This document shows positions 922-12,842 of a stretch of DNA of 15,226 nt, piece by piece; the stretch's first letter is position 1, and every line of letters begins with the position of its first letter. Position numbers and translations under genes: made by a program. The notes under the pieces are model-generated. The model did not search any database. It had not been told where the DNA came from and saw nothing but the letters and a program-made list of their open reading frames with translations. This stretch comes from a virus, in IMG/VR virus record IMGVR_UViG_3300045988_083488, positions 1-15,226 of that record; one strand, written 5' to 3'.

Positions 922-1374
922 ATGGTTAAATATAGACTTCATAACATCACAGATTTTGGCGTAGAACTCCATGACTTCTACACTGAAAACTCACTAAATA
1001 ACTACATAACCTTGTTTGTAGACCCTCCATATTGGGTTGAAAATTTAGAAACACATGAAAATGTGTATACAGGTTTTGATGGGCATATCGAAACTCATTT
1101 AGTTAATGAAAATACAGTAGTTACCCCCAATAAATTAGGCGACTTAAATGTTTCACGTGAAACATTACATGAAAGTGAAATAGAATGGATAAAAAGACAC
1201 AATATTGTAGAAGAAAAAGAGCCATTTATTAAATCAGAAAAAATATTCTATTTCTTAGCTATGTTATCTGTCATTGTCATGGCAATATTTTTACTATATC
1301 TTTTCTTATCTATTGTATCATTTATAGCAGAGCACTTTTCAGAGTTCACTTGGAAAGTATTTAATATTTTATAA
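922..1374 (+). CDS. Early C-terminally membrane-anchored protein, function unknown
   Basis: SD GAGGAGG at 906-912 precedes ATG 922. The C-terminus has a long hydrophobic stretch, IFYFLAMLSVIVMAIFLLYLFLSIVSFIA. The gene contains one copy of the 20-bp palindrome in frame (encoding NVSRETL). Confidence 0.65.
   Translation: MVKYRLHNITDFGVELHDFYTENSLNNYITLFVDPPYWVENLETHENVYTGFDGHIETHLVNENTVVTPNKLGDLNVSRETLHESEIEWIKRHNIVEEKEPFIKSEKIFYFLAMLSVIVMAIFLLYLFLSIVSFIAEHFSEFTWKVFNIL
1147..1166. promoter_or_regulatory. Palindrome copy 1 (AATGTTTCACGTGAAACATT), intragenic
   Basis: This is a perfect 20-bp palindrome, identical to the copies at 6313-6332 and 7626-7645. Confidence 0.6.
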
Positions 1375-1385
1375 GGAGGAAAATC

Positions 1386-1580
1386 ATGGCAAAATTAACA
1401 AACCAATTATTACGCTACAAAGTGATGTTTACGAAAGGAGGCACAGGCGGTTACACCGCTCGTGTCATGATACCAAAAGAAGCCATACGCGATTTAGGCA
1501 TTCACCCGGGAGACAGTATTGAATACACACGTGTACCGCATGGCTTACTCTTAAGAAAAGTGCAAAAGGAGGGCGACTAA
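1386..1580 (+). CDS. AbrB/SpoVT (swapped-hairpin) family DNA-binding protein; putative transcription regulator
   Basis: ARVMIPKEAIRDLGIHPGDSIEYTRVPHGLLLRK matches the AbrB/MazE/SpoVT domain pattern (v-IPkeir-LGi--GD-le). The protein is a 64-aa single domain. SD AAGGAGG overlaps the upstream stop codon. Confidence 0.75.
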   Translation: MAKLTNQLLRYKVMFTKGGTGGYTARVMIPKEAIRDLGIHPGDSIEYTRVPHGLLLRKVQKEGD

Positions 1581-2312: not shown

Positions 2313-4199
2313 ATGCCACGAAAAAAGAAAATAACCTTTTGGGCTTGCGATTTTGAGACAACTGTATGGGGTGAAAAAGTAGAGCAAGAAAAAGGCAAAA
2401 AGCAAGACAGTACGGAAGTTTGGTCGGGAGCGGACGTGGCTTTATATGATGATACTGAAACCGTTACAATAACGCATTCCATAAGAGATTTTTTAAATAG
2501 GTTTTTGACAATGAAAGGAAACAATGTATTATACTTCCATAACCTAGCTTTTGACGGTTCTTTTATTGTTGACTTTTTATTAAAAGAGGGGTGGCGCTGG
2601 GTACACTGTAAAGATAAAGAAATGAATTCAAAAGATTTTCAAACTTGTATATCAGATATGGGTTCATGGTACTGGATTAAATTAAAATGGAATAAGACGT
2701 TTTTAGAAATCCGAAACTCTTTGAAACTTATGCCCTCTTCATTGAAAAATATCGGGAAATCATTCGGGACAAAGCATCAAAAATTAGATATGGATTACGA
2801 GGGTGAAAGATATGCCTATTGTGATATATCAGAAGATGAAAAGAAATACATTGAAAATGATGTGTTAGTGTTAAAAGAAGCCTTAGAAATGATGTTTGAC
2901 GAAAAGCACGATAAATTGACAATAGGGTCTTGTTGTCTGTCAGAATTTAAAGGGTTTTATGAGAACAAACAATATGATAAGTTATTTCCCGACATTAGAG
3001 AAGATTATCTTGACGAATCAATTACAGATGTGTGGAATCAATGGGATTATGTCCATAAATCATATCACGGTGGCTGGTGCTATGTAAATCCGCAATACTC
3101 TCATACCGTAGTAGGTGACGGATTAGTGTATGATGTAAATTCTCTTTATCCGTCTATGATGCATAGCATTAGCGGAAACAAATACCCGTTCGGACATGGG
3201 GAATACCATAGGGGAGCGCCCTCCGATGAACTTATAAGTTCTACTAATAAATATTTTTTTATCCGCTTCAATTGCCGATTTCAACTAAAAAAGGGGGCGT
3301 TCCCGTGGCTTCACATTAGGCAGAGTGCATTGTATAAAGCGAATGAAAATTTATACAGCTCTAATGTAAGATATAGAGGTGAATATTATAGATATTATCG
3401 TGATATTGATGGACAGATGCATGATACTAATATTACCCTCACTATGACTTGTACTGACTGGCAGTTATTTCAAGAAACTTACGATATTTTTGACTTAGTT
3501 ATATACGACTATGTATGGTTTTACGCTAGAGAGGGTTTTTTCGATGAATACATAAATAAATACGGAGAAGAAAAGAGAACCTCAAAAGGTTTTAAAAGGC
3601 AAAAAGCGAAACTCTTTTTGAATAATCTGTATGGCAAATTCGCCATGTCGGATAACTCTTCCTATAAAGAGCCTTATCTTGATGAAGATGGTATTATAAG
3701 ATTTATTTTGCATGAAGAACATGAAAAGAAAGTAGGATATATTCCTATCGGTAGTGCTATTACATCTTATGCAATGAATTTTACAATTCGTCATGCTATG
3801 GCGAATTATGAGCGATTTTGCTACGCCGATACGGATTCTATTCATTTGATTGGACTAGATAAAGCAAATAAGGTTGTGGAGCACCCTACGAATTTCTGTT
3901 GTTGGAAATGCGAAAGTACGTTTGATTTTGCATATTATGAGCGTCAAAAGACTTACGCAGAACATATAGTTGAAGAGAATCATGAGCCTTGTGAGCCTTA
4001 TCTTGATATTAAAGCTTGTGGAATGAGCAGTCAAGCTAAACGCAAATTTATTGAAGAGGGAAAAGACATTTCAGAATTATCCACTGGACTTAGTATGGAA
4101 ACTTGTAATTTGAAAGCAGAGCGTGTACAAGGAGGTATTGTATTAAGAAATAAGGACTTTAATATCCATACGCAAAAAGATAAAAAAATTATGATATAA
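2313..4199 (+). CDS. Protein-primed family-B DNA polymerase (phi29 gp2-like)
   Basis: Exonuclease motifs: Exo I CDFET (D13/E15), Exo II HNLAFDGSF (N77/D81), Exo III YIENDV (Y179/D183). Polymerase motifs: A DVNSLYPS (D274), B KLFLNNLYGKF (K433), C YADTDS (D506/D508), plus KTY (K546). The protein looks collinear with my recalled phi29 polymerase from the MPRK start to the GG-V-L end. Confidence 0.95.
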   Translation: MPRKKKITFWACDFETTVWGEKVEQEKGKKQDSTEVWSGADVALYDDTETVTITHSIRDFLNRFLTMKGNNVLYFHNLAFDGSFIVDFLLKEGWRWVHCKDKEMNSKDFQTCISDMGSWYWIKLKWNKTFLEIRNSLKLMPSSLKNIGKSFGTKHQKLDMDYEGERYAYCDISEDEKKYIENDVLVLKEALEMMFDEKHDKLTIGSCCLSEFKGFYENKQYDKLFPDIREDYLDESITDVWNQWDYVHKSYHGGWCYVNPQYSHTVVGDGLVYDVNSLYPSMMHSISGNKYPFGHGEYHRGAPSDELISSTNKYFFIRFNCRFQLKKGAFPWLHIRQSALYKANENLYSSNVRYRGEYYRYYRDIDGQMHDTNITLTMTCTDWQLFQETYDIFDLVIYDYVWFYAREGFFDEYINKYGEEKRTSKGFKRQKAKLFLNNLYGKFAMSDNSSYKEPYLDEDGIIRFILHEEHEKKVGYIPIGSAITSYAMNFTIRHAMANYERFCYADTDSIHLIGLDKANKVVEHPTNFCCWKCESTFDFAYYERQKTYAEHIVEENHEPCEPYLDIKACGMSSQAKRKFIEEGKDISELSTGLSMETCNLKAERVQGGIVLRNKDFNIHTQKDKKIMI

Positions 4200-4625: not shown

Positions 4626-4976
4626 ATGGTAGAAATTAAAGAAATGAGCAGAGAATTTACAAAGGTCGAGAAGTATCTTATGACTACAGCACCCGACATT
4701 GAACCATTAAAAAATATCGCTGACGGGGAATCTATTCCAGTTGACGGATATATTATTTTTGATGATATCAAAGATAACGGAGATGTGCAGGAGATTGTGA
4801 GCATCATCACATCTGATAAGAAAGTTTATTCAGGGCAGTCTGCAACCTTTAGACAGTCTTTGAAAGACATTGAAAGTGTCATGGACGGTGAAAAATTTTC
4901 TATTATTAAAATTAGCGGAAAGACAAAAGCAGGTCGCGATTATATTAATTGCACCTTAGACGTATCAAATTTATAA
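4626..4976 (+). CDS. phi29 p5-like single-stranded DNA-binding protein candidate
   Basis: It is 116 aa. ADGESIPVDGYII..., EIVSIITSDKKVYSGQSATFRQSLKDIESV and GKTKAGRDYINCTLDVS are collinear with my recalled phi29 p5 segments LPDGTIIEANAI..., [31 protein letters not shown] and GTSSKGNVFFSLQLS. Confidence 0.55.
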   Translation: MVEIKEMSREFTKVEKYLMTTAPDIEPLKNIADGESIPVDGYIIFDDIKDNGDVQEIVSIITSDKKVYSGQSATFRQSLKDIESVMDGEKFSIIKISGKTKAGRDYINCTLDVSNL

Positions 4977-5016
4977 AATGATGTCGTGAGAATACCATTT
5001 TATGTTCTCTTCTTCT

Positions 5017-5046
5017 AAAGAGGTGGCTATATGTCACCTCTTTTTA
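5017..5046 (+). terminator. Rho-independent terminator after the p6/p5-like unit
   Basis: AAAGAGGTG (5017-5025) pairs with CACCTCTTT (5035-5043) around a 9-nt loop. The T-run continues to 5045. Confidence 0.75.
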
Positions 5047-5053
5047 AAAAATA

Positions 5054-5073
5054 ATTGTTTCACGTGAAACATT
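5054..5073. promoter_or_regulatory. Palindrome copy 2 (ATTGTTTCACGTGAAACATT; 16-bp perfect core at 5056-5071)
   Basis: It matches the 20-bp consensus with one mismatched base pair. It ends directly against the AGGAGG SD (5074-5079) of the ATPase gene. Confidence 0.6.
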
Positions 5074-5086
5074 AGGAGGTGTTAAT

Positions 5087-6133
5087 GTGATTAATGATTG
5101 TTATTACCATTGTGACAGGTTGTTGACATTAAAAGATAAAAACGGGAACACACCCGACATTTATATTGTTGATGGAAATAGAACGGCAGGAAAAAGCTAC
5201 TCCATTAAGTGTAGACAAGTTTCTGACTTTTTAAAAGATAAATATAGACCCGAAAATCAATTTATTTATTTATATCGCAATGTCGTTGATATGAAAAATT
5301 GCGCTGATACATATTTTGGTGATATATCTGAAAAATTTGACGGGTATGTAATGACTGAAAAAAGTTTAATGAATGGGGCATTAGTACAATTATTTTTAAA
5401 TGAAGAGCCATGTGGTTATTGTTTAGCGTTGTCTGTCGCTAGAAAATATAAAAAAATGCGTGGCTTATTTGTAAATATCCGTTCTGTATTTTTTGACGAA
5501 TATCAAGACGAAGATAACGTATATCTCTCAAACGAAGTAAATAAGCTTTTATCATTGCTTACAACGATTAGTGCAGGACGCGGAAAGCAACATAGAAGAG
5601 TTATGTTATATATGGCGTCAAATACCGTGTCATTATTGAACCCTTATTATAGCGTTTTTGGGATTAACAAAATGCTAAAATATAATACTAAAATTTTACG
5701 AGGTGATGGCTGGGTATTTGAACGAACTTATAATGAAAATGCATCAACAGCATATAAGGAAAGTGGAATTGCGCGAGCGTTTCAGGGGGCGTCTTATAAT
5801 GAATATGCTAGTGAAAATAAATATCTGAATGACAATGATTGTTTAATCGGAAAACCAACAGGTCAGTCACGTTATATTTGTACAATTCGATTCAATGAAA
5901 AAATGTATAACGTAAGAAGATACGACACTTATATGTATATTTCAACTGGTGCAGATGAAAGTTTTCCGACACGAATATGTTTTACAAAGAATGATGTAAT
6001 AGACAATACGGCTATTCGCGTAAATTCAACCCATTATATCGTCACGATGCTACGGGAATATTTCAACAGGGGGTTGCTTTTGTTTGAAAATTTGGAATGT
6101 AAGAACATGATATTTGATGTCATATCGTTTTAA
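5087..6133 (+). CDS. DNA encapsidation (packaging) ATPase, phi29 gp16-like
   Basis: GTG start 7 nt after AGGAGG. Walker A GNRTAGKS (recalled phi29 GARGIGKS) and Walker B VFFDEY (IVFDEF). NEVNKLLSLLTT and ASNTVSLLNPYY parallel recalled NEVSALLNLMDT and LSNAVSVVNPYF. Confidence 0.88.
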   Translation: MINDCYYHCDRLLTLKDKNGNTPDIYIVDGNRTAGKSYSIKCRQVSDFLKDKYRPENQFIYLYRNVVDMKNCADTYFGDISEKFDGYVMTEKSLMNGALVQLFLNEEPCGYCLALSVARKYKKMRGLFVNIRSVFFDEYQDEDNVYLSNEVNKLLSLLTTISAGRGKQHRRVMLYMASNTVSLLNPYYSVFGINKMLKYNTKILRGDGWVFERTYNENASTAYKESGIARAFQGASYNEYASENKYLNDNDCLIGKPTGQSRYICTIRFNEKMYNVRRYDTYMYISTGADESFPTRICFTKNDVIDNTAIRVNSTHYIVTMLREYFNRGLLLFENLECKNMIFDVISF

Positions 6134-6151
6134 TGTTTCATGTGAAGCATT
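6132..6151. promoter_or_regulatory. Palindrome copy 3, degenerate (AATGTTTCATGTGAAGCATT)
   Basis: It differs from the consensus at two positions. It overlaps the ATPase stop codon (6131-6133) and the first 2 nt of the -35 element at 6150. Confidence 0.5.
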
Positions 6152-6178
6152 GACATATTAAATTATATATGTTATAAT
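6150..6178 (+). promoter_or_regulatory. Full-consensus sigma-A promoter with extended -10, not followed by an ORF
   Basis: TTGACA (6150-6155), 17-nt spacer, TGt-TATAAT (6170-6178). No SD or plausible start codon occurs for about 200 nt downstream. Confidence 0.75.
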
Positions 6179-6183
6179 TACAA

Positions 6184-6340
6184 TGTACCCAAAATAATAC
6201 GAGCATTGTAATTGATATACGCGCACATAGACAAGTAGTCTGATATCAATTTTTGGATTTGCGTCCCCTTTGATTCGATTATTTTGTACCGTACAAAATG
6301 TTTCACGCGGACAATGTTTCACGTGAAACATTTTTATTTA
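6184..6340 (+). ncRNA. Candidate structured non-coding RNA (possible pRNA analogue, or a leader of the lysis cassette)
   Basis: A predicted start about 6-8 nt after the -10 gives an RNA of roughly 150 nt. Long-range pairs: 6190-6198 with 6278-6286 (9 bp), 6200-6202 with 6275-6277, and 6184-6188 with 6291-6295. An internal hairpin pairs 6210-6218 with 6243-6251. The 3' end would be the 6313-6332 hairpin followed by TTTTTATTT. End coordinates are estimates. Confidence 0.4.
6297..6332. promoter_or_regulatory. Palindrome half-site (AATGTTTCACG, 6297-6307) plus palindrome copy 4 (6313-6332, perfect 20 bp)
   Basis: The full copy is an exact consensus and is followed by TTTTTATTT. The half-site sits 16 bp upstream and duplicates the left arm. 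Confidence 0.6.
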
Positions 6341-6365
6341 CAAACAAATCTATTTGTGGTATTAT
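6337..6365 (+). promoter_or_regulatory. Possible promoter for the holin-endolysin cassette
   Basis: TTTACA (6337-6342), 17-nt spacer, TGg-TATTAT (6357-6365). The implied leader is very short, because the SD begins about 8 nt after the -10. The call is therefore tentative. Confidence 0.35.
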
Positions 6366-6385
6366 ATAAAAAAGGAGGTGATAAT

Positions 6386-6610
6386 ATGCAGGAAGTCATG
6401 ACAGCTATTAACACATTGGGTCTACCTACAGTTGTTGCGATTGCGTCCATGTGGTACGTGAAATACAGAGAGGATAAAAATGACGCACGCATAGACAAAC
6501 TAAATGAAGCGCACAAAAAAGAAATGGGAGATATTACAGAAGCTTTGAACAACAACACACTTGCGCTTCAAAGAATATGCGATACATTTGAACAGAAAAG
6601 GGAGGATTAA
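6386..6610 (+). CDS. Holin-like protein (BhlA/UviB-like architecture)
   Basis: The start is reassigned to ATG 6386, which follows AAGGAGGTG at 6372-6380. The 74-aa protein has one N-terminal transmembrane segment (LGLPTVVAIASMWYV) and a charged helical tail. It lies immediately upstream of the endolysin. Confidence 0.6.
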   Translation: MQEVMTAINTLGLPTVVAIASMWYVKYREDKNDARIDKLNEAHKKEMGDITEALNNNTLALQRICDTFEQKRED

Positions 6611-6612
6611 AC

Positions 6613-7602
6613 ATGGCAGTGAAAAAAGCAGTAGACATTTCATATCACAACGGGGTTATTGATTTTGAACGATTAAAAAACGCTGTAGACTATGTTATCA
6701 TTCGTTGCGGATATGGACAAGATATGGCATCACAAGACGATAAACAATGGAATCGAAATGTCAGTGAATGCGAAAGATTAGGGATTCCATACGGCGTATA
6801 TTTCTATTCCTATGCAAAAACCACAGCTAGAATAGAGGGTGAAATTAATCATTGTCTTAGATTATTACAGGGGCACACTCCTAATCTTCCTGTATTTTTT
6901 GACAGTGAAGAAAAAGGAACACAAGGCGTAGCAAAGCACAACGCAAAGCGTTTTTGCGATGCGATGCTGACGAACGGTTATAAGGCAGGAATCTATGCTA
7001 GTAAATCATGGTTCGAGAATTATATTGGCGAAACATGGGGATATGATTTATGGATAGCTCGGTACGCGAATGTATTAGGTGTAGATAATGTGGACATATG
7101 GCAGTATTCCAGTAATGGCTCTGTTGACGGTATTAATGGAAGATGCGATGTGAATCACGTGTACAAAGACTATGGAGCTTCAAGTGCTACGCCTACTATA
7201 CCGCAGCCCCCTACTAGTCAAGCAAAACCAAGAAATGAATTGATTGCTTTAGGTCAACAGCACGCTATTAATTTTACAGGTGTTCAGATTGCTGTAGACG
7301 GGATTGTCGGGAGAAACACAAAAAGAATGGCTGTACGTGTCGTGCAAAGAGCTATGAATGAGGACTATGGTTATACCATTGCAGAGGACGGAATTGTAGG
7401 CAAAAAGACAAGAGCAAAAGCAGGAAAGCATTATGTAAAGCGAGGAGAAACGCAGTATCTTGTCACAGCTCTTGAAATCTTGTGTTTGTTGCAAGGAAAA
7501 GACCCGAACGGTGTCGAATGTCCAGGAACATTTGGCGGAGGTCTTGCACGCGCTTGTGGTAGTGAATTTGTCTACGCAAAAGATATGCTATATATGTTAT
7601 AA
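6613..7602 (+). CDS. Endolysin: GH25 muramidase plus C-terminal PG_binding_1-type repeats
   Basis: GH25 hallmarks: DISYHNGVIDF, YVIIRCGYG, GIPYGVYFYSY, LWIARY, IWQYSSNGSVDGINGRCDVN. The C-terminus has two DGIVGxxT motifs typical of the peptidoglycan-binding domain. Confidence 0.85.
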   Translation: MAVKKAVDISYHNGVIDFERLKNAVDYVIIRCGYGQDMASQDDKQWNRNVSECERLGIPYGVYFYSYAKTTARIEGEINHCLRLLQGHTPNLPVFFDSEEKGTQGVAKHNAKRFCDAMLTNGYKAGIYASKSWFENYIGETWGYDLWIARYANVLGVDNVDIWQYSSNGSVDGINGRCDVNHVYKDYGASSATPTIPQPPTSQAKPRNELIALGQQHAINFTGVQIAVDGIVGRNTKRMAVRVVQRAMNEDYGYTIAEDGIVGKKTRAKAGKHYVKRGETQYLVTALEILCLLQGKDPNGVECPGTFGGGLARACGSEFVYAKDMLYML

Positions 7603-7603
7603 T
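7595..7603 (+). promoter_or_regulatory. Extended -10 promoter element overlapping the endolysin stop codon
   Basis: TGt-TATAAT (7595-7603) with a poor -35 (CGCAAA). The palindromes at 7609-7647 would lie from about +1 to about +35. Confidence 0.35.
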
Positions 7604-7608
7604 TTCTA

Positions 7609-7647
7609 TTCACGTGAAGCAAAAAAATGTTTCACGTGAAACATTTT
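7609..7647. promoter_or_regulatory. Core palindrome TTCACGTGAA (7609-7618) plus palindrome copy 5 (7626-7645; extends to a 24-bp perfect palindrome, 7624-7647)
   Basis: Copy 5 is AAAATGTTTCACGTGAAACATTTT. The centres of the two sites are 22 bp apart. The cluster lies between the endolysin stop and the SD of the tail-lysin gene. Confidence 0.6.
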
Positions 7648-7666: not shown

Positions 7667-8674
7667 ATGCCAAATATTAATGTAGCGTATCAATGGGTGG
7701 TCAATGCGTGCAATGCTCCTAATATTGGCTATTCACAGCAATACCGAAGAGGGCAGACCGTGAACGGCATTACTTATTATGATTGCAGTTCTTTTATATC
7801 AAAAGCGCTAACAGAAGCAGGATTTTTCTCACCGAATCCGTGGTTCACTACAAGAACAGAAGAGGGATATCTATTACAGGCAGGATTTAACGAAATTAGT
7901 GTCAATGAGGCATGGCAGGCAGGTGATATTGTTTGGCGCAGTGGTCACACGGAAATGGTATACAGTGGAAACGGTGTTGGAGGTGGCGGTGTCACTATGG
8001 GAGCACACAGCGGGCGTTATCCGTTACCTGAACAAGTCAGTATTAATTCCCATGTAAGTAAGCCCTCTGCATGGACAAAGATATATAGATATGGTGACAG
8101 TGCAGGAATGCCTCTTGAGTGGATTCACGGAAACCGATATCTGACAGACGATGAAATGAAGAACAACGCTTATGTATTCTATAGCACAATGTTCTTCAAA
8201 GATTTCACCTTGAACGCCATTGCAGGAATGTTAGGAAATATGGAGACAGAATCCAATATCAATCCTGAATTATGGCAGTCACTAAAAGAGGGAAACTATA
8301 ACGGAGGTTACGGATTAGTTCAGTGGACACCTGCCACAGTCTATACAGATTGGGCGAACGCTCACGGGTATGACATCACAGACGGTTACTATCAATGTGT
8401 TTGGCTCAATGAAGAAACAGTAAGTAGTGGACAGTGGATTGAGACATTAAAATATCCGATATCATGGGAAGAGTTCAGAAAGTCCACGAAAGAACCAGAC
8501 TACTTAGCGTCTGTATTTTTAAAAAATTTCGAACGTGCAGGGGTGGAAAAAGAAGAGGATAGAAAAAAGAACGCGCTAAAATGGTATGCATATTTACAGA
8601 CATTATCCCCATACCCGATTCACCCACACGCAAGAAAAAGAAAAATGCCTCTTTACTTTTTCTTGCCGTGGTGA
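7667..8674 (+). CDS. Tail-associated peptidoglycan hydrolase (functional counterpart of phi29 gp13): N-terminal Cys-His peptidase-like domain plus C-terminal phage tail lysozyme-like domain
   Basis: YYDCSSFISKAL ... GDIVWRSGHTEMVY fits an NlpC/P60- or CHAP-type Cys/His pair. MLGNMETESNINPE...GGYGLVQWTP fits the phage tail lysozyme motif (GN--ES--NP...G-GL-QWT). Confidence 0.7.
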   Translation: MPNINVAYQWVVNACNAPNIGYSQQYRRGQTVNGITYYDCSSFISKALTEAGFFSPNPWFTTRTEEGYLLQAGFNEISVNEAWQAGDIVWRSGHTEMVYSGNGVGGGGVTMGAHSGRYPLPEQVSINSHVSKPSAWTKIYRYGDSAGMPLEWIHGNRYLTDDEMKNNAYVFYSTMFFKDFTLNAIAGMLGNMETESNINPELWQSLKEGNYNGGYGLVQWTPATVYTDWANAHGYDITDGYYQCVWLNEETVSSGQWIETLKYPISWEEFRKSTKEPDYLASVFLKNFERAGVEKEEDRKKNALKWYAYLQTLSPYPIHPHARKRKMPLYFFLPW

Positions 8675-9023: not shown

Positions 9024-10292
9024 ATGGCAGACGCAACGAATAGAAATATTTTAAAAGCAGTAAGGCAGGAGCTTTCTTTTGAAGTTCAGAATCACTTGCC
9101 TGTAGAAGTCTTAGACAATTTACAGGCTGTCTATGATAACATTCTGAATTTTGCTCCTGTACGGAACGAAATTGTTCCGTCATTAATTAATCGTATCGGT
9201 ATGCAGACCGTGGACAGTATCGCATGGAGAAACCCGTTAGCACGATTTAAAAAAGAACCTATGCGCTATGGCGAAACACATGAAGAAACATACGTTAATA
9301 TGTGTAAAGGTCGTGTCTATGATTCACAGGCAGATTTTAAATTCGCATTTCAGCAATACCAGTCTTATATCATGAGCGTGTTCCACAATGTCAATCTTGA
9401 AATTCAGTATCCAATTACGGTTACTTATGATAACCTTAGAAAAGCTTTTACTAGCGAATATGGAATCCGAGACATGATTAAGGCAAAAATGGAGAGTGCT
9501 ATCACAGGAGCGAACTGGGATGAATACCTTGCTATGCGTGATTTGATTAATGTTGGTTATGAAAAAGAGGTACTTCCAGCAGTGACCGTTGACGCGATTG
9601 TCGATGAAGCATCGGCGAAAAAATTACTGATTGAAGTAAAAAGAGCAGTTGGCGAGTTTGGTTTTCCGTTACCTGAAAACAACCCAGCAGGGGCGACTTC
9701 TCATGCTATGCCTGCTAACCTTATTTGGATTACAACGCCTGAAGTTAATGCTCAGATTAGCGTTGACGCATTAGCATATGCGTTCCATATGGACAAGGCA
9801 GACGTAGCAGTTCAGACGGTTATTGTAGACAAATTTGCCAGTGATGCAATACAGGGAGTTCTTTGCGATGTGCGATTTTTCAACGTGCGCGACCAGTTCA
9901 AAGAAATGAGTGACCAAAGACTTGCAAATGTATTATCTTGGAACTACTTCTATACACAGGTAGAAATGGTAAGCGCAAGTCCGTTCTATCCGATTCGTGT
10001 ATTTACAACAGATACTGTTGTTGATGCACCGACTCTCGGTGTTACGACAGGAACTTACACAGCAGGGCAGACACAGGAAGTTGAAGTAACGGTCACAGGT
10101 GGGTCAGGCACATATCATCAGAATTTAGTGACGCTTGAAGTTGACAGTGGTGCTACTTCTGCTAAGACGTATGTAATTCCTGGAACACATCTTTTGCACA
10201 CAGGAGCGGACGAGACAGGAACTATCGTATTAAAAGCGATTTACAGACCAAATGAGAAAATCACAAAAACAGCAAGTTTCACAAAAGCGTAA
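9024..10292 (+). CDS. Major capsid protein (phi29 gp8-like) with C-terminal Ig-like (BIG2-type) domain
   Basis: SLINRIGMQ...NPLARFKKEP...EETY and VDALAYAFHMDKAD...WNYFYTQ parallel recalled gp8 SLVDRIGLV...NPLKKFKKGQ...EEIY and VDVLAKAFNMNRTD...WNYYYHV. The C-terminal 90 aa is Thr/Gly/Val-rich and looks like a beta-sandwich. Confidence 0.9.
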   Translation: MADATNRNILKAVRQELSFEVQNHLPVEVLDNLQAVYDNILNFAPVRNEIVPSLINRIGMQTVDSIAWRNPLARFKKEPMRYGETHEETYVNMCKGRVYDSQADFKFAFQQYQSYIMSVFHNVNLEIQYPITVTYDNLRKAFTSEYGIRDMIKAKMESAITGANWDEYLAMRDLINVGYEKEVLPAVTVDAIVDEASAKKLLIEVKRAVGEFGFPLPENNPAGATSHAMPANLIWITTPEVNAQISVDALAYAFHMDKADVAVQTVIVDKFASDAIQGVLCDVRFFNVRDQFKEMSDQRLANVLSWNYFYTQVEMVSASPFYPIRVFTTDTVVDAPTLGVTTGTYTAGQTQEVEVTVTGGSGTYHQNLVTLEVDSGATSAKTYVIPGTHLLHTGADETGTIVLKAIYRPNEKITKTASFTKA

Positions 10293-11942: not shown

Positions 11943-12842
11943 ATGCGAAACCCTTTAAGAATTTTTGAAAAATGTAAAGATAAAAAATTTAATGGTGATT
12001 TTGAAACAATCAAAACTATCTATTTTTATGATATTTTTGATATATTTGTAAATCGGTATCAATGGCATAACTTACCCGAAGAAATTTTGCCGATGTACAT
12101 TGAACAAACACTTTTTTGGCATGGACTTGGTGTATTCATCAAAGATGATATAGCAGGATACGCTTTTATGAAAGTTGCATTATCAGGATTGCCTGATATT
12201 TATAATATCCCTCAAGATAGAATTGCTTATACGGCTAATGGGTATATCGAAGATTATGGCAAGAAAAATAGTTGCATTTTATGGAACAATTATTCGACTA
12301 TGCCATATTACTATAAAGCGTTAATGTATGCTGATGCAATGGCGAATACATGGAAAACAAAAGGCATTAATATGTACGCACAACGTACACCTGTTGCACT
12401 TTCTTCATCAGACAATGAAAAACTAAGCTTTGAAGTAGTAGGCGAAGAGTACGATAACTATTTACCTATTCTAAAACTTTCTGATTCATTAAATTTAAAA
12501 GATATCAAAGCTTTGAACATGGGAGCCCCTTACATTGTCGATAAATGTGAACAGGAATTACGAGATTTATGGTCACAAGTATTAACATCTTTAGGGTATG
12601 AAAGTAATCCAGTAGAAAAAGGTGAGCGTCTTGTTACAGGTGAAACGGCAGGGAACAACGGGCAGATTGAAGCAAATAGAAATGTTGGTCTAATATTGAG
12701 AAGAAGATGCGCGAACGCTATTAACGAATTATGGGGACTCAATGTGACTGTTGATTTCAATAGTGTGTTGCCGACCATGCTTAATGGATATATACCTGAA
12801 AAATATATGCAAAGAGGTAAGGAGGGTGACGAGATTGAGTAA
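11943..12842 (+). CDS. Head-tail connector / portal (upper collar, phi29 gp10-like)
   Basis: YQWHNLPEEI, AQRTPVAL, GAPYIVDKCEQ, EKGERLVTGE and INELWGLNVTVDF parallel recalled gp10 FEWENLPPTI, AQKTPVLI, DAPYVVDKLNAQ, EKKERMVTDE and INELYGLNVKVKF. Confidence 0.9.
   Translation: MRNPLRIFEKCKDKKFNGDFETIKTIYFYDIFDIFVNRYQWHNLPEEILPMYIEQTLFWHGLGVFIKDDIAGYAFMKVALSGLPDIYNIPQDRIAYTANGYIEDYGKKNSCILWNNYSTMPYYYKALMYADAMANTWKTKGINMYAQRTPVALSSSDNEKLSFEVVGEEYDNYLPILKLSDSLNLKDIKALNMGAPYIVDKCEQELRDLWSQVLTSLGYESNPVEKGERLVTGETAGNNGQIEANRNVGLILRRRCANAINELWGLNVTVDFNSVLPTMLNGYIPEKYMQRGKEGDEIE

What the first reader, a model, noticed from the sequence alone, without database searches (positions are those of the whole stretch)
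6134..6385. Promoter-driven, ORF-less, highly self-complementary locus directly downstream of the packaging ATPase: candidate relocated pRNA
This is the only large non-coding stretch in the genome. It begins with the best promoter in the window (TTGACA-17-TGtTATAAT, 6150-6178), yet no SD or credible start codon follows for about 200 nt. The predicted transcript can close on itself through a 5'/3' helix: CAAAATAAT 6190-6198 with ATTATTTTG 6278-6286, CGA 6200-6202 with TCG 6275-6277, and TGTAC 6184-6188 with GTACA 6291-6295. That helix encloses a 9-bp hairpin (6210-6218 with 6243-6251), which has an inner 5-bp stem and a 9-nt bulge, ACGCGCACA. A 3' hairpin (the 6313-6332 palindrome) plus a U-tract follows. 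This mimics the phi29 pRNA layout of a roughly 117-nt domain closed by an end-to-end helix plus a 3' domain. The only GC-rich patches (ACGC/CGCA in the bulge, TGCG/GCGT at 6260-6264) are mutually complementary tetranucleotides, reminiscent of pRNA hand-in-hand loops. phi29-type motors need pRNA. In phi29 its gene is at the left end, where this genome has no room (nt 1-140 hold the ITR, a promoter and an SD). Alternatively, the region is a structured leader or attenuator controlling the holin-lysin cassette.
Basis: partly seen in the sequence, partly recalled or inferred. Interest (0 to 1): 0.8.

Follow-up and report, generated by a model that had tools for sequence, protein, structure and literature searches.

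The report
Prohead-RNA-like gene beside the packaging ATPase
A small phi29-like phage of gut Clostridia carries, right after its DNA-packaging ATPase gene, a conserved folded RNA built like the phi29 "prohead RNA", a motor part so far described only in Bacillus phages, so packaging RNAs may be much more widespread than thought.

Summary
Positions 6134-6385 hold no credible ORF. They hold a perfect sigma-70-type promoter (6150-6178), a ~112-nt RNA (6184-6295), a terminator-like hairpin with a T-run, and a second promoter (6337-6365) for the holin gene.

About 120 related metagenomic phages conserve the RNA as strongly as ATPase codon positions 1 and 2. Its helices are kept by compensatory changes.

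A covariance model of this RNA finds, in register, the RNA that follows the ATPase stop codon in a second, much more diverse clade that includes Clostridium phage CS229P1. There 27 of 33 pairs covary.

The element order matches phi29 pRNA: closing helix, stem, 9-nt bulge, hairpin, UUU linker, small hairpin. The phage has gp16- and gp10-type proteins.

Rfam's pRNA model does not match, and the gene is not at the genome end.

My verdict is a real structured ncRNA, most likely a divergent pRNA. No experiment yet shows a packaging function.

The "3' palindrome" is a consensus host parS (ParB/Spo0J) site, one of five in the genome, as in phi29.

The parts
5087..6133 (+). DNA-packaging ATPase gene (phi29 gp16 type). 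The RNA gene follows it in every clade examined.
   Evidence: PHROG terminase 3e-54. Pfam Podovirus_Gp16 3e-31, covering 19-325 of 331 profile positions.
6132..6151 (.). parS-like palindrome AATGTTTCATGTGAAGCATT (core 6134-6149, 2 mismatches to consensus parS). It overlaps the -35 hexamer of P1. It is an exact parS in most relatives.
   Evidence: parS identity. Column identity 0.994 across 80 relatives.
6150..6178 (+). Promoter P1: TTGACA (6150-6155), 17-nt spacer, TG-extended TATAAT (6170-6178). The predicted start is about 6184-6186 (inferred).
   Evidence: Only 12/12 match in the window. The hexamers are conserved while the spacer varies (0.83) in relatives.
6184..6295 (+). Core of the structured RNA (domain I, about 112 nt), a three-way junction closed by a 5'/3' helix.
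   Evidence: MFE fold. 97.2% of cells paired, and 8 pairs with double changes against 3.5 +/- 1.0 in shuffles. RNAalifold gives the same helices. Column identity 0.948 against 0.739 at ATPase third codon positions.
6184..6205 (+). A-helix, 5' strand: UGUAC 6184-6188, CAAAAUAAU 6190-6198, CGAGCA 6200-6205. It pairs with 6271-6295.
   Evidence: Compensatory changes at 6186:6292 (UA<->CG, 9 sequences), 6193:6283, 6200:6277 and 6201:6276 (GC<->AU, 19-20 sequences).
6210..6218 (+). C-like helix, 5' strand (AAUUGAUAU). It pairs with 6243-6251.
   Evidence: MFE. Nearly invariant, with only AU<->GU changes.
6219..6227 (+). One-sided 9-nt bulge ACGCGCACA, the equivalent of the pRNA CE or right-hand loop. 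GCGCA 6221-6225 is complementary to 6260-6264.
   Evidence: Column identity 0.972. The homologous columns covary with the D-loop in the sister clade.
6228..6242 (+). E-like hairpin: UAGAC, loop AAGUA, GUCUG.
   Evidence: Three of its pairs show double compensatory changes (AGAC/GUCU <-> GAAC/GUUC <-> GGC/GCC).
6243..6251 (+). C-like helix, 3' strand (AUAUCAAUU).
6252..6254 (+). UUU linker at the junction, in the same place as the UUU bulge of the phi29 three-way junction.
6255..6267 (+). D-like small hairpin (GG ... CC). Its loop carries the invariant UUGCG. UGCGU 6260-6264 is the equivalent of the pRNA left-hand loop.
   Evidence: Column identity 0.98. The stem is invariant, so it has no covariation support of its own. 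In both covariance-model alignments it lines up with the D hairpin of the sister clade.
6271..6295 (+). A-helix, 3' strand: UG.AUUCG 6271-6277, AUUAUUUUG 6278-6286, GUACA 6291-6295.
6296..6339 (+). 3' domain and terminator-like element. It holds a parS half-site (6298-6308), a full consensus parS AATGTTTCACGTGAAACATT (6313-6332, core 6315-6330) and the T-run 6333-6339. Two alternative hairpins share the 3' arm.
   Evidence: helix 7. The simple terminator scan does not flag it, because the long form has a 17-nt loop and the short form has only 2 G-C pairs. Termination is therefore inferred.
6337..6365 (+). Promoter P2 for the holin-lysin genes: TTTACA, 17-nt spacer, TG-extended TATTAT.
   Evidence: 10/12 with TG. 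The -35 (0.994) and -10 (0.943) are conserved while the spacer varies (0.82).
6371..6388 (+). Shine-Dalgarno sequence AAAGGAGGTG and the ATG (6386) of the holin gene 6386-6610. It is not part of the RNA.
   Evidence: PHROG holin, weak.
11943..12842 (+). Connector (upper collar) gene, phi29 gp10 type. It is the expected docking partner of a pRNA. The N-terminus is basic (MRNPLRIFEKCKDKK).
   Evidence: Pfam Phage_connector 2e-48. PHROG upper collar 2e-52. Translation.
1147..1166 (.). Exact parS site inside ORF 922-1374.
   Evidence: Syntenic in relatives.
5054..5073 (.). Exact parS site immediately upstream of the ATPase Shine-Dalgarno sequence.
7626..7645 (.). Exact parS site immediately upstream of the Shine-Dalgarno sequence of gene 7667-8674.

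Best explanation
Positions 6150-6339 are a stand-alone gene for a small structured non-coding RNA. It is a divergent counterpart of the phi29 prohead RNA (pRNA).

Proposed steps:
- Host RNA polymerase starts at the consensus promoter P1, at about 6185 (inferred).
- It makes a core of about 112 nt that folds into a three-way junction, plus a 3' hairpin domain that ends at a T-run (fold shown, ends inferred).
- The long helix formed by the 5' and 3' ends would carry the gp16-type ATPase, which is encoded just upstream.
- The junction arms would sit on the gp10-type connector and prohead.
- The bulge GCGCA (6221-6225) of one molecule would pair with the loop UGCGU (6260-6264) of the next. This would close a ring around the portal that scaffolds the ATPase ring for packaging of the terminal-protein-linked genome. 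All of this step is inferred by analogy with phi29.

What is shown:
- The RNA structure is under selection.
- The RNA belongs to a family that is always linked to the ATPase gene.
- The bulge-loop pairing is maintained by covariation in that family.

The two palindromes that bracket the gene are host parS sites. They belong to a genome-wide set of five. They most likely recruit host ParB/Spo0J, as in phi29. The downstream one also serves as the terminator stem.
For: 1. Real RNA.
- In 76 distinct sequences of the window's clade, 97.2% of pair cells are standard pairs. Slid controls give 35-45%.
- 8 pairs show changes on both sides, against 3.5 +/- 1.0 in shuffles (0 of 500).
- RNAalifold predicts the same helices independently.
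- G-U pairs are consistent only with the + strand.
- The RNA core is conserved at 0.948. ATPase codon positions 1 and 2 are at 0.944 and 0.962, position 3 at 0.739, and the holin gene at 0.823.

2. One family with the post-ATPase RNA of a large sister clade.
- Model R2, built from the window clade, was run with filters off on 81 kb.
- Its 15 best hits are all that RNA, full length and in register. The best are 33.5 bits (E = 5e-5), 29.2, 27.6, 26.0, 25.8 and 25.0 bits.
- The reverse model R1 puts the window RNA 6184-6299 among its two top hits (16.7 bits, E = 0.06).

3. The sister clade (58 distinct sequences).
- 92.1% of cells are paired, against 69.4% in shuffles.
- 27 of 33 pairs have double changes. 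The covariation score is 0.564 against 0.148.
- The five bulge:loop pairs all covary. The types seen are AGC/GCU, ACC/GGU, GAC/GUC, CGC/GCG, UGC/GCA, GGA/UCC, UGU/ACA and AAG/CUU.
- 306 of 370 cells are paired, against 246 +/- 5 when loops are swapped among sequences (0 of 5000).

4. Synteny.
- The RNA lies directly 3' of the ATPase gene in 79 of 80 loci of the window clade and in 83 of 83 of the sister clade (81 full length).
- In three further clades an RNA of the same topology occupies that place: MT835904-like, 17 of 17 loci; MT836152-like, 19 of 19; and both HM2-like genomes. Their ATPases are only 36-39% identical to the window's.
- The bulge/loop complements differ by clade: GUAGUC/GACUAC in HM2 (P = 0.004), UGCUAA/UUAGCA in the 12-kb phages (P = 0.015), GGGA/UCCC in MT835904.

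5. Same topology as phi29 pRNA. Both have the A helix, a C helix, a 9-nt 5'-side bulge, the E hairpin, the C helix 3' strand, a 3-nt U linker, the D hairpin and the A helix 3' strand (Rfam structure line; folds).

6. The protein partners are present. Pfam finds Podovirus_Gp16 (3e-31) and Phage_connector GP10 (2e-48). There is also a protein-primed-type PolB and 74-nt inverted terminal repeats.
Against: - Rfam Phage_pRNA (RF00044) gives no hit at E <= 10 on the window, on the 176-nt locus alone, or on 20 related loci. It scores 145 bits on phi29.
- My two models do not hit the phi29 pRNA core. Homology to known pRNAs is therefore not shown. Only the architecture is shared.
- The gene is mid-genome, not at the left end as in phi29.
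- The D stem is only 2-4 bp, against 6 bp in phi29, and has no covariation support in the window's clade.
- In the window's own clade the bulge and loop are nearly invariant, so the pairing there rests on homology with the sister clade. The 5-bp complementarity alone has P of about 0.17.
- Sequence cannot tell an intramolecular pseudoknot from an intermolecular ring.
- Not all phi29-like phages need a pRNA. For ascc-phi28, 'no evidence for a pRNA' is reported (PMC7823558). In phiCP7R there is no room after the ATPase gene.
- No expression, prohead-binding or packaging data exist.
Confidence: 0.7

Rival explanations
1. The RNA is a structured non-coding RNA tied to the ATPase gene but with another role. 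It could be a 3'-UTR-type element or small RNA that stabilises or regulates the ATPase message, or a scaffold for some other complex. The bulge-loop pairing would then be an ordinary intramolecular pseudoknot.
For: - In the sister clade the RNA starts at or within a few bases of the ATPase stop codon, with no recognisable promoter. It must be co-transcribed with the ATPase gene.
- Sequence cannot distinguish intra- from intermolecular pairing.
- No hit to the Rfam pRNA model.
Against: - In the window's clade, HM2 and MT835904 the RNA has its own strong promoter, so it is made independently of the ATPase message.
- A three-way junction with a covarying loop-loop contact, conserved as strongly as protein-coding positions, is far more than an mRNA stabiliser needs.
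- The element order copies pRNA exactly.
Confidence: 0.17
2. The region is a structured leader or attenuator. Transcripts from P1 read into the holin-lysin genes, and the fold controls lysis timing.
For: - The RNA lies upstream of the holin gene on the same strand.
- The terminator-like hairpin is A+T-rich and may leak. Two alternative hairpins share one arm.
Against: - A conserved promoter P2 with its own -35 and extended -10 sits between the hairpin and the holin Shine-Dalgarno sequence.
- Both alternative hairpins end at the same T-run, so there is no terminator/antiterminator choice.
- In CS229P1 the homologous RNA is followed by a bidirectional terminator and a convergent gene, not by lysis genes.
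- Across clades the RNA follows the ATPase gene, not the holin gene.
- No Rfam cis-regulatory family matches.
Confidence: 0.05
3. The conservation is at the DNA level. The stretch would be a protein-binding region, with ParB nucleation at the two parS sites and other factors between them, and not an RNA gene.
For: - Two parS sites bracket it, one on the -35 hexamer of P1.
- The bulge and loop segments are invariant in the window's clade.
Against: - Compensatory double substitutions that keep Watson-Crick and G-U pairs on the + strand are not explained by DNA binding.
- The sister clade mostly lacks parS next to the RNA yet keeps the fold.
- A perfect promoter points into the stretch.
Confidence: 0.03
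4. The region hides a small protein gene, for example the 57-aa minus-strand ORF 6158-6331.
For: An ATG-started ORF exists on the minus strand. It persists in 55 of 77 relatives.
Against: - It is lost in 22 of 77 close relatives.
- It has no Shine-Dalgarno sequence, whereas every real gene here has AGGAGG-type sites.
- All genes are on the + strand.
- The substitutions follow base pairing, not codons.
Confidence: 0.02

Closest known systems
phi29 prohead RNA (pRNA; Rfam RF00044 Phage_pRNA) of Bacillus phages phi29, PZA, M2/Nf, B103, SF5 and GA-1
   Same: - It is encoded by a small phage that replicates by protein priming and has gp16-type ATPase and gp10-type connector genes.
- The core is about 115 nt and is closed by a 5'/3' helix.
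- It has a three-way junction.
- It has a stem with a 9-nt one-sided bulge followed by a small hairpin.
- It has a U-rich 3-nt linker.
- It has a second small hairpin whose loop is complementary to the bulge over 4-6 nt.
- The two loops covary across relatives.
- An extra 3' hairpin domain ends at a terminator.
- It is transcribed from a host-type promoter.
   Different: - There is no detectable sequence or covariance-model similarity, in either direction.
- The gene lies mid-genome directly 3' of the ATPase gene, not at the left end.
- The D stem is much shorter.
- The hosts are Clostridia of the gut rather than Bacillus.
- In the sister clade the RNA has no promoter of its own and abuts the ATPase stop codon.
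- Function is untested.
The 12 'novel pRNAs' reported in 2025 from Bacillus and Cytobacillus phages (PMC12670572)
   Same: They were identified by the same criteria used here: a three-way junction, paired right- and left-hand loops of 3-4 nt that covary, and gp10 and gp16 homologues in the same genome.
   Different: - Those RNAs were found by homology to known pRNAs, and all come from Bacillus-type phages (Salasvirus, Bfsp1, LY3 and GA-1 groups).
- It was found by position and covariation.
parS sites of phi29, bound by host Spo0J/ParB
   Same: - There are five copies of the 16-bp consensus TGTTNCACGTGAAACA scattered over a roughly 15-19 kb lytic phi29-like genome.
- In phi29 they help trap the phage genome in the forespore (PMC2731898).
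   Different: - Here four copies are perfect consensus sites.
- Two bracket the RNA gene. One overlaps the -35 hexamer of its promoter and one forms the terminator stem.
- ParB binding and a sporulating host are not shown.
3'-UTR-derived bacterial small RNAs
   Same: In the sister clade the RNA begins at the stop codon of the upstream gene and would have to be released by processing.
   Different: - The window's RNA has its own consensus promoter.
- Its architecture is that of a scaffold RNA, not a seed-pairing regulator.

Membership tests
Prohead RNA (pRNA, Rfam RF00044) | Significant match to the curated covariance model Phage_pRNA | tested here: not met
   No hit at E <= 10 on the whole window, on 6170-6345 alone, or at E <= 1 on 20 related loci. 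The positive control, phi29, scores 145.4 bits against a gathering score of 100.
Prohead RNA (pRNA, Rfam RF00044) | Encoded by a phi29-like phage with a gp16-type packaging ATPase, a gp10-type connector and protein-primed replication | tested here: met
   Podovirus_Gp16 3e-31 and Phage_connector 2e-48. PolB PHROG 3e-127. 74-nt inverted terminal repeats.
Prohead RNA (pRNA, Rfam RF00044) | Domain I fold: a 5'/3' A-helix closing a three-way junction, a C helix, a one-sided CE bulge, the E hairpin on one arm and the D hairpin on the other | tested here: met
   MFE fold. Covariation in the A and E helices. Same order and same bulge (9 nt) and linker (3 nt) lengths as phi29. The D stem is short and invariant, so it is unsupported on its own.
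Prohead RNA (pRNA, Rfam RF00044) | Complementary right-hand (CE) and left-hand (D) loops of at least 2-4 bp | tested here: met
   GCGCA 6221-6225 pairs with UGCGU 6260-6264 (4 Watson-Crick pairs and 1 G-U). The clade consensus is ACGCA/UGCGU with 5 Watson-Crick pairs. The complementarity is not significant in isolation (P about 0.17).
Prohead RNA (pRNA, Rfam RF00044) | The two loops covary among relatives | tested here: met
   In the window's own clade there is only an AU<->GU change. In the homologous sister clade all 5 pairs covary with up to 5 pair types each. Homology and register were established with models R1 and R2.
Prohead RNA (pRNA, Rfam RF00044) | The loop-loop pairing is intermolecular and builds a ring on the prohead portal, and the RNA is needed for packaging and absent from mature virions | not testable with these tools
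   This needs native gels, prohead purification, in vitro packaging or cryo-EM.
Prohead RNA (pRNA, Rfam RF00044) | Gene at the left genome end, transcribed from early promoter A1 (typical of known members, not defining) | tested here: not met
   The gene is at 6150-6339 of 15226. Positions 1-140 hold only the inverted terminal repeat, a promoter and a Shine-Dalgarno sequence.
Chromosomal-type parS site (ParB/Spo0J centromere), as exploited by phi29 | 16-bp palindrome matching TGTTNCACGTGAAACA | tested here: met
   Exact at 1149, 5056, 6315 and 7628, and with 2 mismatches at 6134. The consensus is taken from PMC7022226.
Chromosomal-type parS site (ParB/Spo0J centromere), as exploited by phi29 | Several copies per phage genome, beyond chance, and conserved in relatives | tested here: met
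   6 matches at <= 3 mismatches against 0.20 expected, with 0 of 200 shuffles reaching this. The sites are syntenic in about 80 relatives. phi29 has five (PMC2731898).
Chromosomal-type parS site (ParB/Spo0J centromere), as exploited by phi29 | Bound by host ParB and affecting segregation or spore entrapment of the phage genome | not testable with these tools
   The host is unknown. The only pointers are a MAG binned as Clostridia and relatives that infect Clostridium symbiosum and the host of HM2.
Transcription attenuator or leader of the lysis cassette | Mutually exclusive terminator and antiterminator folds, no promoter between leader and gene, and linkage to the regulated gene across relatives | tested here: not met
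   Both alternative hairpins end at the same T-run. A conserved promoter P2 intervenes. In other clades the RNA is linked to the ATPase gene and not to lysis genes.
Any other curated RNA family (Rfam 15), tRNA or tmRNA | Match to a covariance model, or ARAGORN detection | tested here: not met
   Only chance-level hits with E of 0.6-6, far below the gathering scores. No tRNA or tmRNA.

The most novel reading that the evidence does not exclude
The RNA is a true prohead RNA. If so, pRNA-dependent packaging motors are not a peculiarity of Bacillus phages. They would be used by a large radiation of phi29-like phages of gut Clostridia: more than 460 ATPase relatives in IMG/VR and about 220 loci examined here. 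The pRNA gene would be genetically coupled to the ATPase gene, and in one clade it would be made as the tail of the ATPase message. In addition, host parS sites sit on the promoter and in the terminator of the RNA gene. This leaves open that ParB binding ties pRNA supply, and so packaging, to the host's segregation or sporulation state.
Probability: 0.6. Interest if true: 0.85.

Novelty: new variant of a known kind. Interest (0 to 1): 0.8.

Why it matters
**State of knowledge.** pRNA is the only known RNA that forms part of a viral DNA-packaging motor, and it is a workhorse of RNA nanotechnology. Reviews up to 2024 call it unique to phi29 and related Bacillus phages (PMC11476376). A 2025 survey added only more Bacillus and Cytobacillus phages (PMC12670572). 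For other phi29-like phages the field has assumed, or looked for, pRNA-free motors (PMC7823558).

**What a Clostridia-phage pRNA family would change.** The family has no sequence similarity to known pRNAs and sits next to the ATPase gene. It would:
- widen the distribution of RNA-dependent packaging;
- make the origin of pRNA (ancestral or acquired) directly testable;
- offer cultured systems for experiments (CS229P1-3 on Clostridium symbiosum, and HM2);
- provide a rich natural set of covarying kissing-loop pairs and three-way junctions.

**Annotation.** It also gives a simple rule: look immediately 3' of the gp16-type gene.

**The parS sites.** The parS finding suggests that gut phi29-like phages use the same host-ParB hijack known from phi29.

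Tried and rejected
1. Rfam scans found no pRNA or any other family. I scanned the whole window, the locus alone and 20 related loci. The positive control on phi29 worked.

2. Nucleotide searches against cultured phages gave nothing useful. Megablast of the window found no match. The sensitive search found only the 26-nt palindrome.

3. I first read the repeated palindrome as an operator of a phage regulator, with the MazE/AbrB-like 64-aa ORF 1386-1580 as candidate. tblastn with that ORF found no phage relatives. A literature string search then showed that the palindrome is the consensus parS. The operator idea is dropped.

4. Spo0A boxes (TGTCGAA) are not enriched: 3 found against 1.8 expected.

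5. The palindromes are not general terminators. Only the 6313 and 7626 copies are followed by T-runs.

6. Loop complementarity is not significant as stand-alone evidence for the window (P about 0.17), and the same is true of phi29 itself (P about 0.5). I rely on covariation instead.

7. I looked for intermediate relatives of the window clade that might show loop covariation within it. A second ATPase query returned the same 122-contig clade, all at >= 84% identity.

8. Model R1 with default filters missed the window RNA. Only with filters off did it appear, at a marginal E = 0.06. The reciprocal model R2 gave the significant result.

9. HM2-like, MT835904-like and MT836152-like RNAs and the phi29 pRNA are not reached by R2. 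R1 gives MT836152 a marginal 17.7 bits. I link these RNAs by position and topology only.

10. C. perfringens phage phiCP7R has no room after its ATPase gene, so the synteny is not universal among phi29-like phages.

11. The minus-strand ORF is rejected. No tRNA or tmRNA was found.

12. The first attempt to anchor the sister-clade RNAs by regular expressions misaligned several sequences. I replaced it with an nhmmer profile alignment.
Full report
**The window**

The 15,226-bp window is a complete phi29-like genome.
- It has 74-nt inverted terminal repeats.
- All genes are on the + strand.
- It encodes a protein-primed-type DNA polymerase (2313-4199), a packaging ATPase (5087-6133) and a holin and endolysin (6386-7602).
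- It also encodes a major head protein (9024-10292), a tail protein, an upper collar or connector (11943-12842) and a lower collar.
- Pfam assigns the ATPase to Podovirus_Gp16 (3e-31) and the connector to Phage_connector/GP10 (2e-48).
- Nothing in GenBank phages is similar at the nucleotide level.
- By ATPase protein, the nearest records are human-faecal contigs and Clostridium phages CS229P1-3 (host Clostridium symbiosum) and HM2, at 36-39% identity.
- A MAG binned as 'uncultured Clostridia bacterium' carries the RNA core motif.

**Checking the observation**

- The promoter TTGACA-17-TGtTATAAT at 6150-6178 is the only 12/12 match in the window.
- Positions 6134-6385 form the largest gap between genes. 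They contain no + strand ORF with a ribosome-binding site.
The 113-nt core gives -23.6 kcal/mol, z = -2.3. With the 3' hairpin the values are -39.9 kcal/mol, z = -3.8.

I add three points.
- A second promoter, TTTACA-17-TATTAT, lies at 6337-6365 between the RNA and the holin ribosome-binding site.
- The 6313-6332 palindrome is a genome-wide repeat.

**Relatives of the window**

The ATPase protein retrieves about 122 IMG/VR contigs of 14-16 kb at 84-97% identity.
- In 79 of 80 fetched loci the stretch after the ATPase gene is collinear with the window.
- Column identity is 0.948 over the RNA core, 0.972 in the bulge and 0.98 in the small-hairpin region.
- For comparison, ATPase codon positions 1, 2 and 3 score 0.944, 0.962 and 0.739. 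The holin gene scores 0.823, and the two promoter spacers score about 0.82.
- Both promoters keep their hexamers while their spacers drift. That is the signature of working promoters.

The stated structure was tested on 76 distinct sequences.
- 97.2% of pair cells are standard pairs. Controls with partners slid by 1-3 columns give 35-45%.
- Eight pairs carry changes on both sides, against 3.5 +/- 1.0 in 500 shuffles, none of which reached the observed value.
- RNAalifold predicts the same closing, C-like and E-like helices without being told.
- Examples are UGUAC/GUACA <-> UGCAC/GUGCA, CGA/UCG <-> CAA/UUG <-> UGA/UCA, and AGAC/GUCU <-> GAAC/GUUC <-> GGC/GCC.
- The G-U pairs fit only the + strand.
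- The minus-strand ORF is broken in 22 of 77 relatives.

I conclude that this is a real structured RNA gene.

**Other clades**

The more distant ATPase relatives all have a non-coding stretch directly after the ATPase stop codon.
- In HM2 the layout copies the window: promoter, an RNA of about 100 nt, a terminator built on a parS-like palindrome, a second promoter and the next gene.
- The folds have the same topology.
- The bulge and the small-hairpin loop are complementary, with a different sequence in each clade. HM2 has GUAGUC/GACUAC, the 12-kb phages have UGCUAA/UUAGCA, and MT835904 has GGGA/UCCC.

**The sister clade**

An alignment-based ATPase search found more than 466 relatives. The 80 nearest to MT835814 span 70-96% identity.
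- All 83 loci of this clade have the RNA right after the stop codon, 81 of them full length.
- On 58 distinct sequences, 92.1% of cells are paired, against 69.4% in shuffles and 30-43% in slid controls.
- 27 of 33 pairs show changes on both sides. The covariation score is 0.564 against 0.148.
- The five bulge:loop pairs all covary, with eight different trinucleotide cores.
- Swapping loops among sequences lowers the number of paired cells from 306 to 246 +/- 5, and none of 5000 swaps reached 306.

**Is the window's RNA the same family?**

- Model R1, built on the sister clade, missed the window with default filters.
- With filters off, its two best hits in 34.7 kb were the MT836152 RNA (17.7 bits) and the window at 6184-6299 (16.7 bits, E = 0.06). 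Both were full length and in register.
- The reciprocal model R2, built on 22 window-clade cores, was run with filters off over 81 kb. Its 15 best hits are all the post-ATPase RNA of sister-clade loci, full length. Six have E <= 0.005, and the best scores 33.5 bits with E = 5e-5.
- The E-values are rough. The identical position and register in 15 separate loci is not a chance result.
- The alignments place the window's CGC (6222-6224) and GCG (6261-6263) on the covarying columns of the sister clade.
- The loop-loop pairing shown there therefore applies to 6221-6225 and 6260-6264 in the window.

**Comparison with phi29 pRNA**

- Rfam's structure line for phi29 and its MFE fold read: A helix, C helix, 9-nt one-sided bulge holding the right-hand loop, E hairpin, C helix 3' strand, UUU, D hairpin holding the left-hand loop, A helix 3' strand, then a dispensable 3' domain.
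- The window reads the same way, element by element. Both have the 9-nt bulge, the UUU linker and a 3' hairpin domain.
- The criteria used in the 2025 survey of new pRNAs are a three-way junction, 3-4 paired loop nucleotides that covary, and gp10 and gp16 in the genome (PMC12670572). All are met.
- Not met: similarity to RF00044, detection of phi29 by my models, and the left-end location.
- I therefore say that the RNA is built like a pRNA and most likely works like one. I do not file it under RF00044.
- The literature held here describes pRNA only in Bacillus-type phages.

**The palindromes**

- AATGTTTCACGTGAAACATT occurs at 1147, 5054, 6313 and 7626. A copy with 2 mismatches is at 6132, and a half-site is at 6298.
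- The sites are syntenic across the clade.
- The 16-mer is the consensus chromosomal parS bound by ParB/Spo0J.
- phi29 carries five parS sites and uses Spo0J to get its genome into the forespore.
- Exact parS sites also lie next to the RNA in CS229P1 and several sister-clade members, between the ATPase stop and the RNA.
- One lies inside the terminator loop of MT835854, one in C. perfringens phiCP7R, and others in more than 120 IMG/VR contigs.
- In the window one parS overlaps the -35 hexamer of P1, and another forms the stem that precedes the T-run.
- Whether ParB binding modulates P1 is unknown.

**Mechanism and confidence**

- Shown: a conserved, covarying, promoter-driven RNA. It is a member of a family linked to the gp16-type gene, and the bulge-loop pairing is under selection.
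- Inferred: transcript ends; ring formation through intermolecular pairing; docking on the connector and prohead; scaffolding of the ATPase; and termination at the parS hairpin.
- I put about 0.97 on 'real structured ncRNA' and about 0.7 on 'pRNA-type packaging RNA'.
- The main rival (about 0.17) is another ATPase-linked role with an intramolecular pseudoknot.
- The leader or attenuator idea is unlikely (about 0.05). P2 intervenes, and the RNA travels with the ATPase gene rather than with lysis genes.

Noticed in passing
window 1147-1166, 5054-5073, 6132-6151, 6313-6332, 7626-7645 (half or partial copies at 6298-6308 and 7609-7621): There are five copies of the consensus host parS site TGTTTCACGTGAAACA (ParB/Spo0J centromere), four of them exact, against 0.2 expected. 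They are syntenic in about 80 relatives. phi29 also has five parS sites and uses them for spore entrapment. The same 16-mer is in C. perfringens phages and in more than 120 IMG/VR contigs, some with 4-5 copies.
   Followed up: partly
window 1386-1580: This 64-aa ORF has a MazE/AbrB-type (SpoVT-AbrB) DNA-binding domain (Pfam 7.5e-8, above the cut-off). It is a possible small phage transcription regulator. tblastn found no relatives in GenBank phages.
   Followed up: partly
window 6337-6365: A second conserved promoter (TTTACA-17-TG-extended TATTAT) lies just after the parS/T-run and in front of the holin ribosome-binding site. The lysis genes therefore do not depend on read-through from the RNA promoter.
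   Followed up: partly
window 7588-7645: The last codons of the endolysin gene contain TATATATGTTATAAT, the same extended -10 block as in P1. It is followed by a partial parS (TTCACGTGAAGCA) and a full parS just before the ribosome-binding site of gene 7667. This is a likely promoter with parS sites in the 5' leader.
   Followed up: no
window 5019-5047: A G+C-containing hairpin with a T-run (AAAGAGGTG...CACCTCTTTTT) lies after ORF 4626-4976. A parS follows, and then directly the ATPase ribosome-binding site. No obvious promoter for the ATPase gene lies downstream of this terminator-like site.
   Followed up: no
L202 (Clostridium phage CS229P1) 7992-9206: In CS229P1 the ATPase gene and the RNA form a two-gene unit on the strand opposite to all other genes. 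The unit ends at a bidirectional terminator. The RNA starts 24 nt after the stop codon, with a parS in between and no promoter.
   Followed up: partly
L243-L322, first bases after the ATPase stop (e.g. L251 2223-2346): In most sister-clade phages the RNA (GGUAUC...GAUAU) begins at or overlaps the ATPase stop codon (TAYTAGGTATC), with no recognisable promoter. It must be released from the ATPase message or act as its 3' tail.
   Followed up: partly
L207 and L209-L226 (12-kb phages), e.g. L207 1706-1785: The roughly 12-kb genomes carry a miniature version of about 80 nt with the same topology. The bulge/loop complementarity (UGCUAA/UUAGCA) is so strong that the MFE fold prefers it as an ordinary helix. 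The pRNA-like fold is only 0.8 kcal/mol worse.
   Followed up: partly
L310 about 2228-2344; L204 1729-1867; L302/L303 about 2224-2420: There are variants of the sister-clade RNA. L310 has lost the C/E arm. MT835854 (L204) has about 25 extra nt in the D arm, giving a four-way junction. L302 and L303 have about 160-200 nt inserted between the ATPase gene and the RNA.
   Followed up: no
L127 (IMGVR_UViG_3300014963_000378) after position 4985: This contig follows the window up to the E hairpin of the RNA and then switches to unrelated G+C-rich sequence at the contig end. It is probably an assembly chimera.
   Followed up: no
L326 (phiCP7R) 10123-10257: This C. perfringens phage has a parS followed by a long G+C-rich hairpin in a 135-nt gap after the lower-collar gene. 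It has no room for an RNA after its ATPase gene. Other gaps of 180-290 nt (889-1176, 9192-9399, 16416-16628, 17210-17391) were not examined for a pRNA-like RNA.
   Followed up: no
window 4626-4976: This 116-aa ORF gives a weak sub-threshold match to the phi29 single-stranded-DNA-binding protein family (PF17427, E = 1e-3, 19.8 bits against a cut-off of 25).
   Followed up: no
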